In this document: positions 35,495 through 55,087 of the stretch, one piece after another | Layout: each line of letters opens with the position of its first letter | Position numbering within the stretch: position 1 is the stretch's first letter | Virus record (IMG/VR): IMGVR_UViG_3300005253_000186 | Location: 1 to 64,000 of that record | Strand: one strand, 5' to 3' | Length of the DNA stretch: 64,000 bases | DNA from: a virus | Notes under the pieces: model-generated | What the model saw: only the letters and a program-made list of their open reading frames with translations | The model's database searches: none | What the model was told of the DNA's origin: nothing | Position numbers and translations under genes: made by a program

Positions 35495-36151
35495 CTTGCC
35501 CTCCTTTCTTCGGGTTTATATATAGAGGTCCGTCGAGCCTTTTCTCGCGTCGGCAAAGCATCGTCCGCGGTCCACGTCCCGGTTCGGGGGCTGCCTTTTT
35601 ACAGGGCCCGCAGGCTACGTCTTTTTTCAGTTCCGGCCGGACCTCAATGTGTCGGTTCTCCTCCGCAGCCTCCGTCTCCGATGTTCTTGCGATACCACTT
35701 GGCAAATTCATCATAGTTGATCCAGTGCACATAATCATGCTTGCACTTGGGGCAGACAGTCTGCCCGGGGCCACCTTCCGTAATGTACTCCACGGGATCA
35801 GTGTCTGGCTTTGGCAGGATCCGGTAGTCTTCCCATTTGAATTTACAGTCGTAGCACTCGTACCAGCAAGGCGGAAATGTCTTCTGGGTCTGCTGTTTCG
35901 CCCTCTTTCTCTTAGCCATTACTCGGCGTCGTGTATTGGTGCGCCGCCACACGCCATGGATATTACTCGCTGGGTCATGACTTGAATATCAATCTTCTCG
36001 CTCGAATTTGTCAGATGGTGTTGCAGCAAGTCGTAGATTCTGCCGAACTCGTCTCCTGGATCATCTTTTGGGGTTCCATGGTCTTCGAATTGAAACATAG
36101 TCGTTTTTTCGACAATTACTTCGATCTTCATATTATCTCCCTGGACGTGGT

Positions 36152-36236
36152 TGGTGAGGGCGGTGGGATTCGAACCCACAAGGCCGAAGCCAGCCGGTCT
36201 TAAACCGGCCGTGTCTGCCAATTGCACCACGCCCCC
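36152..36236 (-). tRNA. tRNA-Leu(TAA)
   Basis: GCCGG-TT TAA GA-CCGGC, long variable arm, ACCA. Confidence 0.9.
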
Positions 36237-36467
36237 AGCGTCTTTGCCTGTTAGACTACTGGCCCTTCTTTCCAGTGGCTTCCGTCGTGTGCGTTGTAAA
36301 CAAGTGAGCCTCAACCGCCGAAATCGCTTGGTGCTGCTCCTTCATCATGTCAATGAGAGTCTCGTCTCCATCCGTAAGGCTCTCGTCCAGAGCGTTCTCG
36401 CGAGCGAGATCCAGGACGACTGCCAAAGCTTCTTCAAAGGTCATCGCAATCTCCTTATGGTTAAAAA

Positions 36468-36551
36468 TGGTGGGGCGAGACGGAGTCGAACCGCCAAAGC
36501 CGAAGCGTCTCGTTTACAGCGAGGTGGGCTCTCCACATGCCCAGTCGCCCC
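36468..36551 (-). tRNA. tRNA-Tyr(GTA)
   Basis: CTCG-CT GTA AA-CGAG, variable arm, ACCA. Confidence 0.85.
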
Positions 36552-36553
36552 AT

Positions 36554-36850
36554 GAAGCCCAGGAGGGTCGTAGCATCTACCCGGCAAGCAAGCCGGTGCA
36601 CATCACCCCAATACGGGCAGACGAGCTGTAGGCTGCCCCCTGGACTTCGGTTTGGGTGGCCTCCGGGTCATAGCATCGCTTCCACTGGTTTCCCTCGCCG
36701 GGAAGAGCTTCTGCGGCTACCCTTCGGCCATAGTTAATAAGTAACAGTCTCGGGATCATGGCATCGCGGCATTGGACCTTTCAAGGATCCAATGTTACCC
36801 TGGCTCCACGGGGTACAATTCCCGTTGCCTGGCGGCTCCCCCGAGACTGT
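36554..36850 (-). ncRNA. Three tandem small structured RNAs (36554-36648, 36657-36730, 36744-36850) sharing a double-bulged helix motif
   Basis: Each is closed by a terminal stem and carries GGGN-AGC-CNN ... NNG-AT-GCY-AYG-AYCC; they lie between two tRNA genes. Confidence 0.65.
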
Positions 36851-36853
36851 ATC

Positions 36854-36932
36854 TGGTGTCCATGGAGGGAGTCGAACCCTCAAAATCTCCTGCCCCTCAA
36901 GCAGGCGGCTTTGCCAGTTTGCCCACACGGAC
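36854..36932 (-). tRNA. tRNA-Leu(GAG), short variable region
   Basis: CCTGC-TT GAG GG-GCAGG, ACCA. Confidence 0.85.
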
Positions 36933-36961
36933 ATTCTTTCTCCAACTAGACGAAGTGGCTT

Positions 36962-37414
36962 TTATTCGACCGTGATTGAAAAGACACAAGGGTCGCTTTC
37001 ATTCCCTTGGCTGTCTATTAAAATGACCGTGACAGAAGGGTCGGCGGCGTGTAGCCATGGATCATAGCCATTCTGCACCCAAATTAAATCGCCAGAGTCA
37101 ATATCAACAGATGGCCAGTTGTCGAACATTGGCACAGTAACGTTCACTATAAATTCAGTACCACCTTGAATATTTGTGGCCCATCCAGGAATAATATAAA
37201 CTGGGCTAGTTGCGCTCTGTGCGACTGTAATATCGCCTCCGCAGGTGAATGCTGGAGTTCCTGGTTCCGGAGTTGGCTCCGGTTCGGGGGCTGGGCCTGG
37301 GGCTGAAGGTTTTTGATGTGAATGACTATCCCACGGAGGATGTGCTAAGGGATATTTCTCACAACCAGTGAGAAGCACAAATCCGATTAACATCGTTAGC
37401 GTTTTCATTCTCAT
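36962..37414 (-). CDS. Putative lipoprotein with Pro-rich linker
   Basis: Signal peptide with lipobox LLTGC; PAPEPEPTPEP; locally lower GC. Confidence 0.65.
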   Translation of the reverse strand: MRMKTLTMLIGFVLLTGCEKYPLAHPPWDSHSHQKPSAPGPAPEPEPTPEPGTPAFTCGGDITVAQSATSPVYIIPGWATNIQGGTEFIVNVTVPMFDNWPSVDIDSGDLIWVQNGYDPWLHAADPSVTVILIDSQGNESDPCVFSITVE

Positions 37415-37764
37415 CTTTTTTCCTTAGGCTGGTGGCCAGGCTAATCTAGGGACGGCTTCGCCACACCCGCTACTTATCGTCTTCATCGTCCAGTGCCGCA
37501 AATAGTTCTGCCCATGGACCGTCTGCCGGCAGGATCATGATTATCGGGACTTCTGATTCACGAAGTGTGCCGTCCGGATCGATACCCTTTGCCTCCGATG
37601 TTACCATTTCTTGGGCAACGACCGTGTCTGTGTAAAGGAACTGGTCGTCTGAATCGTGCCCGCATGGCACGCTGACCTCAAGATCCTGGTCGTACTTTGA
37701 CAGTAAGCTGATAAGAGCTTTGACTTTCATGTGAAATCCTCCTGGTGATCTTATACCAGGAACA

Positions 37765-37840
37765 TGGTCCGGCAGGGTGGAATCGAACCACCGACCTGTC
37801 GCTTATAAGACGACCGCTCTTACCCCTGAGCTACTGCCGG
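37765..37840 (-). tRNA. tRNA-Ile(TAT)
   Basis: GTCGT-CT TAT AA-GCGAC, canonical D and T arms, ACCA. Confidence 0.9.
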
Positions 37841-38241
37841 ATCCTTTCGAGCCCAATGTTGCCACGCCTTGCCATTTAGATCGTCATCCTGAGATGCGAT
37901 CATCAAGTATCCGACAACATAACTGATAAATGTGTCTGGTTCAATGTACGTCCCCTGGAATCTTCTTGATGGATATGGGCAGTTGCCCGCACCCACAGGG
38001 TGCCCGTCCCAGAGGATATTGGTCCCGCATTCTGGACAATATCGACTGGCGCTAGGGAGAAAAGGTGTCTTCCCATAGACCAAGTCGCCGGAAGCTCCCT
38101 CTAGGCCCCCGTTCCCATTTGGCCTAATGTCTTCAGTGACGATGCATCTTGGCCGGAGGCATTTTGGACAGAGGACGATGGACCCGGCCGGGATGGAGTT
38201 CCTTTTACCATGCTGCAAACCGGCTAGGCTAACCGTCTTGA

Positions 38242-51172: not shown

Positions 51173-51248
51173 TGGTGTCGGGAGCCGGCACTGCCCCGGC
51201 GACCTCCTGTGCTTCAAACAGGCGCTCTACTATCTGAGCTATCCCGAC
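51173..51248 (-). tRNA. tRNA-Phe(GAA) with non-canonical T-loop
   Basis: CCTGT-TT GAA GC-ACAGG; T-loop GGCAGTG; ACCA. Confidence 0.85.
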
Positions 51249-54168: not shown

Positions 54169-54528
54169 TGGTGGAGGTGCCCGGATTCGAACCGGGGTCT
54201 TGAAATGCATCCAAATGCGCGTTTACGTGCGTAGAAGGTTCTGATCGCCTTCGGCCTTTGGTCAACAGATTCCAGCAAGATCGCCTAGGCCTACACGGCG
54301 AATTATGTCTCAATCACCTGAACGCCGAACGCAGATGATCCAGTCGTAGTTCGTCCGATCTCCAGCTACGACGACAACCTCGCCGGGATCGGGACTACCT
54401 ATTCCTAGGCAGCCATGCGGTAGCCGTTGTCGGCACCTAATTTGTCATCGGATTTTTACGTGGCCTTCCGATGAACCACGGCACGAAGCAACATTCTTCC
54501 TCATCCAATCGATTCCTATATCACCCCC
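54169..54528 (-). ncRNA. ssrA: tmRNA; tag peptide ADNGYRMAA* (54405-54434)
   Basis: 5' GGGGGTGA...ATCGA and 3' GACCCCGGTTCGAATCCGGGCACCTCCACCA, G3:U70 acceptor, 360 nt, tag ORF ending AA-stop. Confidence 0.92.
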
Positions 54529-55012: not shown

Positions 55013-55087
55013 TGGAGCTACCACTCGGATTTGCACCGAGACCTCTAGGGTACAGGCCTAGCGTGCTGCTGTTATCACTATGGCAGC
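55013..55087 (-). tRNA. tRNA-Thr(TGT)
   Basis: CTAGG-CC TGT AC-CCTAG; T-loop TGCAAAT; TCCA. Confidence 0.85.

What the first reader, a model, noticed from the sequence alone, without database searches (positions are those of the whole stretch)
36554..36850. Three tandem unknown small RNAs sharing a double-bulged helix
Between tRNA-Leu(GAG) and tRNA-Tyr are three stem-closed units (minus strand): ACAGTCTCGGGGG-AGC-CGC...GCG-AT-GCC-ATG-ATCCCGAGACTGT; TGGCCGAAGGGT-AGC-CGC...GCG-AT-GCT-ATG-ACCCGGAGGCCA; and GAAGTCCAGGGGGC-AGC-CTAC...GTAG-AT-GCT-ACG-ACCCTCCTGGGCTTC. The flanking helices covary and the apical domains are unrelated, while the AT bulge, GCT/AGC helix and AYG bulge are kept. I do not recognise the motif. 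Inference: it is a protein-binding or processing module, for example a decoy or scaffold RNA.
Basis: partly seen in the sequence, partly recalled or inferred. Interest (0 to 1): 0.72.

Follow-up and report, generated by a model that had tools for sequence, protein, structure and literature searches.

The report
Kink-turn small RNAs between phage tRNAs
Three small folded RNA genes packed between two tRNA genes of an uncultured marine-sediment phage share a conserved internal loop with the sequence signature of a kink-turn, a sharp RNA bend that usually serves as a protein-binding or folding handle; the family is real and uncatalogued, but its partner and job are unknown.

Summary
Three stem-closed units (74-107 nt, minus strand) fill the gap between tRNA-Leu(GAG) and tRNA-Tyr. 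They share 5'-N-A-G-C-C and 3'-G-AU-GC-YAY-GA.

The same triplet sits at the same place in two assembled relatives. Terminal helices covary, apical domains differ, and no Rfam family matches.

I read the shared loop as a kink-turn: a 3-nt bulge, then G.A (9 of 9 assembled units) and A.G (5 of 9; otherwise A.U as in ribosomal Kt-23, or A.C). The terminal stem is the NC helix. An invariant AU bulge two pairs into the C helix is not part of the standard motif.

Against this: the signature carries little information, one diverged relative has U at the key G, and no RNA data or kink-turn-binding protein gene was found.

Most likely these are stable RNAs cut out of the tRNA transcript. The kink-turn would be a common handle and the fast-changing apical domains the variable part.

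Pattern and model searches found the family only in this phage lineage. Earlier notes of this scan report kink-turn RNAs in tRNA clusters of other phages, so this may be one case of a wider class. Function is unknown.

The parts
36744..36850 (-). Unit U1 (107 nt). It has an 11-bp terminal (NC) helix, the kink-turn-like core, a C helix (GC, AU bulge, CGC/GCG), then a junction with hairpin A (36808-36825) and hairpin B (36770-36794).
   Evidence: z -4.0; consensus fold with relatives; 6 pairs kept through changes on both sides.
36834..36840 (-). U1 core, non-bulged strand: 4n G, 3n G36839, 2n G36838, 1n A36837, then G36836 C36835 (C helix) and C36834.
36755..36765 (-). U1 core, bulged strand: G36765, AU bulge 36764-36763, G36762 C36761, loop C-A-U 36760-36758, G36757 (1b), A36756 (2b), U36755 (3b).
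   Evidence: In run X7 the loop reads U-G-U.
36793..36826 (-). Hypervariable hairpin A of U1. The stem is kept, and the loop differs in every relative.
   Evidence: the main substitution hotspot between the window and L181 over 1.5 kb; 11 substitutions and 2 indels in X7 at 36793-36819..
36657..36730 (-). Unit U2 (74 nt). It has a 5-bp terminal helix, a 3x3 internal loop, GGG/CCC, and the core with 2n = U (A.U at 2b.2n) and 3b.3n = C-G. The apical domain is a single arm.
   Evidence: (z -1.7).
36667..36677 (-). U2 core, bulged strand: G-AU-GC-UAU-G-A-C. The partner strand is 36715-36720 (G-U-A-G-C-C).
   Evidence: In X7, 3n changes G to A.
36554..36648 (-). Unit U3 (95 nt). It has a terminal helix with one bulged U and the core with 2n = C. 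Its C helix is GC, AU bulge, CUAC/GUAG. A three-way junction follows with two hairpins.
   Evidence: (z -3.1). The 2n position is U in L181 and X4.
36567..36577 (-). U3 core, bulged strand: G-AU-GC-UAC-G-A-C. The partner strand is 36631-36636 (G-C-A-G-C-C).
   Evidence: In X8, L3 changes C to U and 1b changes G to U.
36854..36932 (-). tRNA-Leu(gag) with encoded CCA, 3 nt upstream of U1.
36468..36551 (-). tRNA-Tyr(gta), starting 2 nt after U3.
57135..57189 (-). P2: a circularly permuted copy of the module, a hairpin inside a tRNA-like gene (57094-57236; T arm and ACCA end). It reads GGUGUUG-AU-GC-UAG-GA-UUA-[7-bp stem, 8-nt loop]-CAU-G-A-GC-CAACAUC.
   Evidence: Pairing was worked out by hand.
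57366..57408 (-). P1: the module letters at the tip of the anticodon arm of a cloverleaf with an encoded U-CCA end (57323-57442). Position 1b is U. The minimum-energy fold prefers a 7-bp hairpin, GCUACUA/UAGUAGC.

Best explanation
U1, U2 and U3 are three paralogous genes for small structured RNAs (about 75-110 nt).

Inferred: they are transcribed as part of the phage's long minus-strand tRNA operon. They would be released by the enzymes that mature the flanking tRNAs: RNase P at the 5' end of tRNA-Tyr, and 3'-end processing after the CCA of tRNA-Leu. Their own terminal helices would protect the ends.

Shown at sequence level: all three are built on one module whose conserved letters are those of a kink-turn.
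- The terminal stem is the NC helix.
- It opens with 3b.3n (U.G or C-G), A.G/A.U/A.C at 2b.2n and G.A at 1b.1n.
- A 3-nt loop Y-R-Y follows on the 3' strand.
- The C helix (G-C, C-G, an invariant AU bulge, then 3-4 more pairs) leads into an apical domain. That domain differs between the units and changes fast between relatives.

Inferred mechanism: the kink folds the apical domain back along the terminal helix. Together with the AU bulge it makes a common handle. The handle either nucleates the tertiary fold or is gripped by a kink-turn-binding protein of the phage or host. The apical domains would carry the unit-specific activity.

The same handle is grafted into tRNA-shaped genes at the head of the cluster. 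This suggests that the handle, not the scaffold, is the functional constant.
For: Real and conserved:
- Model R1, built from the three units, finds a syntenic triplet between tRNA-Leu and tRNA-Tyr in the related phage G001. TerL identity is 80%.
- A metagenome contig, L181, carries the same three units.
- With filters off over 97.7 kb, R2 finds exactly these nine.
- Covariation: 5 of 5 outer pairs change on both sides, 93.8% of cells pair, and 0 of 500 shuffles reach the score. Slid controls pair 33-57% of cells.
- The U1 consensus fold keeps 6 pairs through double changes.
- X8 carries a compensatory A-U to G-C change in the U3 terminal helix, at 36646/36556.

Not coding: a 1-nt deletion at 36680 in L181, X4, X7 and X8 would frameshift the only minus-strand ORF across the units.

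Kink-turn signature:
- 1b.1n is G.A in 9 of 9 units.
- 2b.2n is A.G in 5 of 9, A.U in 3 of 9 and A.C in 1 of 9.
- The loop is 3 nt, and its letters vary (CAU, UAU, UAC; UGU in X7).
- All three G001 units read GGAGCC / GC-UAY-GAU.

These features fit the published definition, the statement that loop letters are poorly conserved, and the natural A.U exception Kt-23 with U.G at 3b.3n (PMC2790904, abstract, introduction and Table 1 read). [quoted passage not shown]

Specificity control: of 292 database matches to the core letters outside this lineage, one has a flanking helix of 5 or more pairs (a 6-pair run, four of them G.U). The counts are 107, 116 minus the one true hit, and 69, plus 7 inspected by eye.

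Operon context: no terminator-like site in 35800-38200, and all 33 tRNA/tmRNA genes are on the minus strand.
Against: - No RNA evidence of any kind. The ends, stability and processing are inferred.
- The kink-turn signature alone is weak evidence. A generic descriptor (helix, A, then a 3-nt bulge with GA, helix) hits 81 times on the minus strand of the tRNA region, against about 62 in shuffles.
- The C helix is interrupted after two pairs by an invariant AU bulge. This is no part of the standard motif as I know it.
- 2n is not G in 4 of 9 units. In the Kt-23 context, U2nC abolished ion-induced folding (PMC2790904, section 12), and U3 of the window has C there.
- The diverged relative in run X8 has U at 1b of U3, and P1 also has U there. 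[quoted passage not shown]
- No L7Ae-family gene was found in G000 or G001. Both are only about half-complete genomes.
- The weakest G001 unit (13.3 bits) is not separated from noise by score. It rests on synteny and anatomy.
- All comparative data come from one narrow lineage.
Confidence: 0.5

Rival explanations
1. The loop is not a kink-turn. It is a double-bulged helix: an AU bulge, a 3-bp AGC/GCU helix and an AYG bulge. It would serve as a sequence-specific recognition or cleavage site for a phage or host ribonuclease or modification enzyme. The units would then be processing or regulatory modules of the tRNA transcript.
For: The most invariant letters are G-AU-GC and A-G-C-C, not the loop. 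The AU bulge has no role in a standard kink-turn. Copies with U at 1b (X8 U3, P1) fit a bulge better than a sheared G.A pair. Minimum-energy folds draw this structure.
Against: The pairs this model needs are not maintained. A pairs with U in most units but is A.C in U1 of G000 and L181. The pair below the bulge is G.A in 5 of 9 units and C.A in 1 of 9, without compensation. A 3-bp helix between two bulges on the same strand is thermodynamically marginal. No nuclease partner was identified.
Confidence: 0.2
2. The units are self-contained folded RNAs (ligand-binding or catalytic). The kink-turn is purely architectural, as in riboswitches, and no protein partner exists.
For: 3b.3n is U.G with 3n = G in 5 of 9 units. 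That is the class predicted to fold without protein, as in SAM-I riboswitches (PMC4382518, abstract). U1 has a conserved multi-helix apical domain with covariation.
Against: The three apical domains are unrelated, and the U2 and U3 domains are not recognisably conserved between G000 and G001. A specific pocket or active site would be expected to be conserved. U1 hairpin A is hypervariable. No Rfam riboswitch or ribozyme model matches at E<=10. U2 and U3 of the window lineage have Watson-Crick 3b.3n and a non-G 2n, which are predicted not to fold alone.
Confidence: 0.12
3. The units are structured spacers with no function of their own. They would be stable hairpins that merely punctuate the polycistronic tRNA transcript or protect it from exonucleases. 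The shared letters would reflect recent duplication.
For: The units are packed tightly between tRNAs, with spacers of 2-13 nt. The family is found only in one narrow lineage.
Against: Duplicates drifting neutrally would not keep an identical 15-letter internal loop while every flanking helix and apical domain has been replaced. The loop is also kept in G001 at 80% TerL identity and in permuted form inside tRNA-like genes 20 kb away.
Confidence: 0.1
4. The units are degenerate tRNA or Y-RNA-like (YrlA) derivatives.
For: They lie in a tRNA cluster. Weak YrlA-model hits exist elsewhere in the cluster, at 57570-57635 (17.1 bits) and 57418-57510 (14.9 bits).
Against: Neither the tRNA nor the YrlA model hits the units at E<=10, and ARAGORN calls nothing there. 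The YrlA hits are far below the gathering score of 69 and rest on T-arm-like hairpins. No TROVE (Ro/Rsr) gene is present in G000.
Confidence: 0.04

Closest known systems
Standard and Kt-23-type kink-turns (H. marismortui Kt-7; T. thermophilus and E. coli 16S Kt-23), as described in PMC2790904 and PMC4382518
   Same: A 3-nt loop is followed by G.A at 1b.1n and then by A.G (as in Kt-7) or A.U (as in Kt-23) at 2b.2n. 3b.3n is U.G, as in T. thermophilus Kt-23. Loop letters are variable. A regular helix lies on the 5' side of the loop.
   Different: An invariant AU bulge interrupts the C helix after two pairs. One unit has A.C at 2b.2n, and two copies have U at 1b. This is not rRNA. The kinked geometry has not been shown.
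Protein-bound kink-turn hairpins (U4 snRNA 5' stem-loop, box C/D and C'/D' motifs, L7Ae sites). Anatomy recalled, not from a call, except Table 1 of PMC2790904.
   Same: The permuted copy P2 has the same topology: the bulged strand is 5' and the NC helix is capped by a loop. It also has G.A, A.G, then U.U at 3b.3n.
   Different: In the three tandem units the bulged strand is 3' and the NC helix is the terminal stem. That is the reverse of a terminal box C/D motif. There is no second motif and no guide-like spacing, the host is bacterial, and no L7Ae or fibrillarin-like gene was seen.
Phage T4 stable RNAs species 1 and 2 (rnaC, rnaD) of the T4 tRNA cluster
   Same: They are small stable RNAs of unknown function encoded among phage tRNA genes and matured with them.
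   Different: Whether T4 RNAs carry a kink-turn was not checked.
Kink-turn RNAs noted earlier by this scan in tRNA clusters of other phages (e1-5744752, e1-5409165, e1-5380279, e1-6017051; AI notes)
   Same: They share the genomic niche (phage tRNA arrays) and the proposed motif. One of them includes tRNA-shaped scaffolds that display a kink-turn where the anticodon should be.
   Different: They lie on other genomes. No sequence likeness to this stretch was found (0 look-alike windows). I did not examine those loci.
YrlA / bacterial Y RNA (Rfam RF02553)
   Same: It is a modular non-coding RNA that combines a protein-binding stem with a tRNA-like domain, and it occurs in some phages (recalled).
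   Different: The Rfam model does not hit the units. No TROVE gene was found. The conserved loop letters differ from the model consensus printed.

Membership tests
kink-turn motif | Three-nucleotide bulge between two helices | tested here: met
   All 9 assembled units and P2 have a 3-nt loop (CAU, UAU, UAC or UAG) between the GC/GC pairs and the G.A position.
kink-turn motif | Regular base-paired C helix on the 5' side of the bulge | tested here: inconclusive
   Two invariant pairs (G-C, C-G) are followed by an invariant AU bulge and 3-4 more pairs. Whether two pairs are enough for the A-minor contacts cannot be judged from sequence.
kink-turn motif | G.A pair at 1b.1n next to the bulge | tested here: met
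   G and A are present in 9 of 9 assembled units and in P2. The exceptions are U at 1b in U3 of run X8 and in P1.
kink-turn motif | A.G pair at 2b.2n | tested here: inconclusive
   A.G in 5 of 9 units, A.U in 3 of 9 (the Kt-23 exception) and A.C in 1 of 9. U2nC blocked folding of Kt-23 in vitro (PMC2790904, section 12).
kink-turn motif | Kinked geometry with A-minor contacts; folding on Mg2+ or L7Ae binding | not testable with these tools
   This needs FRET, gel assays, probing or a solved structure.
any Rfam 15 family | Covariance-model match | tested here: not met
   At E<=10 the only match overlapping a unit is a 23-nt plus-strand fragment of the Cobalamin model (9.2 bits against a gathering score of 31.5, E 7.5). 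The G001 units give only a 5.5-bit lncRNA fragment.
tRNA | Cloverleaf recognised by ARAGORN or the Rfam tRNA model | tested here: not met
   No call falls inside 36554-36850.
YrlA / Y RNA | Match to RF02553; Ro/Rsr (TROVE) partner | tested here: not met
   There is no YrlA hit on the units. PF05731 is absent from G000, which is 51% complete.
box C/D guide RNA | Terminal kink-turn with the bulged (C box) strand 5' and the D box 3', plus an internal C'/D' motif (definition recalled) | tested here: not met
   In U1-U3 the bulged strand is the 3' strand. No second motif occurs within a unit.
HDV-like 'theta' ribozymes next to phage tRNAs (bioRxiv 10.1101/2023.06.13.544163; listing and start of abstract seen) | Match to HDV-like models; nested double pseudoknot (recalled) | tested here: not met
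   No HDV-like Rfam model matches at E<=10. The units are closed by simple nested terminal helices that covary.
T4 species 1/2 stable RNAs | Sequence or structure homology | not tested
   No T4 sequence was compared. blastn of 36000-38000 against the phage collection matched tRNA pieces only in the 20 rows listed of 37 records.

The most novel reading that the evidence does not exclude
The phage carries a modular RNA system. One constant kink-turn-plus-AU-bulge 'handle' is gripped by an as yet unidentified protein. It is fused to interchangeable, fast-evolving 'heads'. The system comes in free-standing form (U1-U3) and grafted onto tRNA bodies (P1, P2). It would be a bacteriophage counterpart of the archaeal and eukaryotic kink-turn RNPs. 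The heads would act as specificity elements, either as guides or as mimics of host RNAs that divert tRNA-directed defence or modification enzymes. If the kink-turn RNAs noted in other phage tRNA arrays work the same way, this would be a widespread and undescribed class of phage RNP.
Probability: 0.12. Interest if true: 0.85.

Novelty: new variant of a known kind. Interest (0 to 1): 0.55.

Why it matters
Phage tRNA clusters have long been known to hide small stable RNAs of unknown function; the T4 species 1 and 2 RNAs are still unexplained (recalled).

This stretch gives a clean, conserved and experimentally tractable example. It offers three short RNAs and a 15-letter module with a specific, testable structural prediction: a kink-turn with an extra AU bulge. 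There is natural variation at diagnostic positions, and permuted copies sit inside tRNA bodies.

If the handle binds a protein, it would reveal kink-turn RNPs in a bacterial virus. It would also give a route to the partner by pull-down with a 75-nt RNA. If it folds alone, the AU-bulged variant extends the sequence rules for kink-turns.

Either way, the family is absent from Rfam.

Tried and rejected
**Y-RNA idea.** I suspected a Ro-binding stem. There is no TROVE gene and no YrlA hit on the units, so I dropped it.

**Partner search.**
- PF01248 (L7Ae) is absent from G000 and G001.
- Pfam on 10 ORFs and on 93 ORFs via a dummy alignment gave only an AAA ATPase, terminase, HNH, NADAR, dUTPase, a response-regulator receiver, HTH, a Cas4-like domain and a zinc finger.
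- No RNA-binding family appeared.

**Wider homologues.**
- Two core patterns were scanned in viral contigs, one in metagenome contigs and one in genome contigs.
- Apart from G001 and L181, none of the matches has the flanking helices.
- One metagenome hit (L174) has a 6-'pair' flank, four of them G.U. I took it as chance and did not follow it up.
- R2 gave 0 hits at E<=5 on 20 loci around distant AAA-ATPase relatives.
- R2 gave 2 weak hits (E 0.28 and 0.95) on 30 whole records of TerL relatives at about 40% identity. The better one is not a member on inspection. The other was not inspected beyond the tRNA scan.
- R2 is tuned to this lineage, so more distant members could be missed.

**Generic kink-turn descriptor** over the tRNA region: 81 hits against about 62 in shuffles. 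It is not informative.

**Pseudoknots.** I looked by eye for conserved pairing between apical loops and linkers. There is a 6-bp A/U match in L181 only, which is not conserved.

**Expression.** No RNA holder was listed. Only DNA contigs could be laid.

**Literature.**
- Searches (kink-turn/k-turn with phage and tRNA terms) listed no paper on kink-turn RNAs in phage tRNA clusters.
- Searches were for VIPR and for the kink-turn rules.
- These searches cover the held library only. Supplementary files were not consulted.

**blastn** of 36000-38000 against GenBank phages matched tRNA pieces only in the listed rows.
Full report
**Context**

The window is the first 64 kb of an 84.5-kb IMG/VR virus record that CheckV puts at about 51% complete. 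It carries 32 tRNA genes and a tmRNA gene, all on the minus strand (Rfam agrees). It also carries a gpA-type large terminase.

Near-identical or related DNA occurs in marine-sediment and sediment metagenome runs of three studies. Runs X2, X4, X7 and X8 were laid; X1 may be the source sample.

**Observation**

Three units fill the 302-nt gap on the minus strand between tRNA-Leu(gag) (36854-36932, encoded CCA) and tRNA-Tyr (36468-36551). They are U1 36744-36850, U2 36657-36730 and U3 36554-36648. Spacers are 3, 13, 8 and 2 nt.

Each unit is closed by a helix formed by its own ends. All share N-A-G-C-C on the 5' strand and G-AU-GC-Y-A-Y-G-A on the 3' strand. The three apical domains (32-66 nt) do not align.

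- Folding energies lie 4.0, 1.7 and 3.1 sd below dinucleotide shuffles.
- The exact 10-mer occurs four times in the window, all on the minus strand and three of them here.
- No terminator-like site lies in 35800-38200.

**Relatives**

A covariance model of the three units (R1) found three tandem matches in the only close IMG/VR relative, G001. TerL identity is 80%, and the matches score 20.8, 19.8 and 12.6 bits. They lie in the same place, between tRNA-Leu(aag) and tRNA-Tyr.

A core-pattern scan of metagenome contigs gave one more relative, L181. It is nearly identical to the window and has the same three units.

A second model (R2) was run with filters off over the whole G000 record and both loci (97.7 kb). 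It finds these nine units. Twelve other matches have E >= 0.34, and one of them outscores the weakest G001 unit. That unit therefore rests on synteny and anatomy.

On the nine units:
- 93.8% of cells pair, against 78.2 +/- 2.6% in shuffles and 33-57% when partners are slid.
- All five outer-helix pairs change on both sides.
- The five core pairs next to the loop never vary, or vary on one side only.

The alignment was fitted to the model, which favours the structure.

U1 is orthologous across the three genomes. Its consensus fold has a terminal helix, the core and a junction with two hairpins. Six pairs are kept through double changes.

Contigs of two diverged populations add natural variants (RNA sense):
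- X7 has U-G-U instead of C-A-U in the U1 loop, and A instead of G at 3n of U2.
- X8 has a compensatory A-U to G-C change in the U3 terminal helix (36646/36556).
- X8 also has U instead of G at 1b of U3.
- In X7, the stretch holding U3 and the start of tRNA-Tyr is replaced by 157 unlike letters.

A 1-nt deletion at 36680, shared by L181, X4, X7 and X8, rules out the only minus-strand ORF across the units.

**What the shared loop is**

In Lilley nomenclature, all three G001 units and U1 of every genome read as follows: NC helix, 3n G, 2n G, 1n A, then G-C on one strand. The other strand reads G-C, a 3-nt loop, 1b G, 2b A, 3b U, NC helix.

[quoted passage not shown] The same paper says that loop nucleotides are poorly conserved.

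U2, and U3 of L181, have A.U at 2b.2n. That is the natural exception seen in Kt-23 of T. thermophilus and E. coli. Its T. thermophilus form also has U.G at 3b.3n (PMC2790904, Table 1).

[quoted passage not shown] Five of 9 units (U.G) would therefore fold without protein. U2 and U3 of the window lineage (C-G, with a non-G 2n) would not.

It also needs a pair below the bulge that is G.A in 5 of 9 units and C.A in 1 of 9. The kink-turn reading accounts for exactly these 'mismatches'.

Points against the kink-turn reading:
- An invariant AU bulge lies two pairs into the C helix.
- U3 of the window has A.C at 2b.2n, and U2nC blocked Kt-23 folding (PMC2790904, section 12).
- X8's U3 and P1 have U at 1b.
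- The signature is low in information. A generic descriptor hits 81 times, against about 62 in shuffles.

I put the kink-turn assignment at about 0.6.

**Other copies in the window**

The same letters recur in permuted order inside tRNA-like genes at the head of the cluster. Earlier notes on this genome also report this.

- P2 (hairpin 57135-57189, inside 57094-57236, which has a T arm and an ACCA end) is a good kink-turn hairpin. It has a 7-bp C helix, the AU bulge, GC, loop UAG, G.A, A.G and U.U, then a 7-bp stem. By my hand parse it sits after an anticodon-arm-like hairpin rather than replacing it.
- P1 (57323-57442) folds as a cloverleaf with a U-CCA end and has the module at the tip of the anticodon arm. 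It has U at 1b, and the minimum-energy fold prefers a competing 7-bp hairpin.
- P3 (about 57672-57756) keeps the 10-mer but lacks the partner strand.

ARAGORN and the Rfam tRNA model call none of the three.

**What it is not**

- No Rfam family matches the units at E<=10 in the window or in G001. The only overlap is a 9-bit plus-strand fragment of the Cobalamin model.
- The units are not tRNA, YrlA or HDV-like.
- They are not box C/D. In these units the bulged strand is the 3' strand, so the orientation is reversed (definition recalled).

**Distribution**

The family appears confined to this lineage at the sensitivity available.

- Core-pattern scans of IMG/VR, JGI/ENA metagenomes and 185,579 species genomes returned 8, 108, 116 and 69 stretches.
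- Outside G001 and L181, none has the flanking helices. The maxima are 4, 6 (mostly G.U) and 3 pairs.
- R2 found nothing in 20 loci around distant AAA-ATPase homologues.
- R2 found nothing credible in 30 whole records of phages with about 40% TerL identity, eight of them at least 90% complete.

**Mechanism**

Shown: a conserved, covarying, non-coding, modular architecture packed into a tRNA operon.

Inferred:
- The units are co-transcribed with the tRNAs and released by tRNA-processing enzymes.
- The loop kinks.
- The kink plus the AU bulge is a common handle, and the apical domains are the specific part.

Turnover of the apical domains is striking. The U2 and U3 domains are unrecognisable between G000 and G001. 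Hairpin A of U1 is the main substitution hotspot between the window and L181 over 1.5 kb that is otherwise about 97-100% identical. It is also where X7 concentrates 11 substitutions and 2 indels. The stem is kept throughout.

No partner emerged. L7Ae and TROVE are absent, and Pfam gives no RNA-binding hit on 103 ORFs. Both phage records are half genomes, and the host is unknown.

**Relation to earlier notes of this scan**

Notes on other genomes (AI notes that I did not check) report kink-turn RNAs in other phage tRNA clusters. One set is grafted into tRNA bodies. No sequence look-alike of this stretch is indexed. I had reached the kink-turn reading before opening the notes (one search states it at 40%).

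**Verdict**

This is a real, conserved and uncatalogued family of small RNAs with a probable kink-turn handle that carries an unusual AU bulge. Its function is unknown. It is a new variant of a known kind and of moderate interest. It would rank higher if the recurring kink-turn RNAs of phage tRNA arrays prove to share a partner.

Noticed in passing
window 36793-36826 (-): Hairpin A of U1 is a local hypervariable spot. The loop reads differently in G000, L181, G001 and X7, while the stem and the rest of U1 stay nearly constant.
   Followed up: partly
L181 3620-4290 (-): In the close relative, the tRNA-Tyr position holds a tRNA-Tyr-like 5' part. It is followed by an ORF with Cys/His motifs that looks HNH-like by eye, and then by a second tRNA-Tyr-like sequence. 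ARAGORN calls no tRNA-Tyr there. This may be an intron or a homing-endonuclease insertion.
   Followed up: no
window 57528-57665 (-): An odd tRNA-like element has two T-arm-like hairpins, one nested in a long stem. It gives a weak YrlA-model hit at 57570-57635 (17.1 bits, gathering score 69). Its fold is not better than shuffles (z -0.5).
   Followed up: partly
window 51176-51248 and 55016-55087 (-): The Rfam tRNA model matches here (51.9 and 47.7 bits), but ARAGORN did not call these sites.
   Followed up: no
window 54169-54528 (-): The phage encodes a tmRNA with the tag peptide ADNGYRMAA.
   Followed up: no
window 36473-36630, in run X7: A 19.7-kb contig of a diverged relative has 157 unlike letters in place of U3 and the 5' part of tRNA-Tyr. 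This is either a strongly diverged U3 or a different insert.
   Followed up: no
whole G000 record: Very few ORFs have Pfam matches: 11 families among 93 ORFs. They include NADAR, dUTPase, a response-regulator receiver domain and a Cas4-like domain. Earlier notes place a VIPR guide-RNA array at 59.2-63.4 kb.
   Followed up: no
window 36962-37414 (-) and 36256-36444 (-): The small ORFs flanking the Leu-units-Tyr block are not kept together with it. The 150-aa lipoprotein-like ORF appears to be missing in G001, and the 62-aa ORF in L181. I judged this by reading. Neither ORF is therefore a conserved neighbour of the units.
   Followed up: partly
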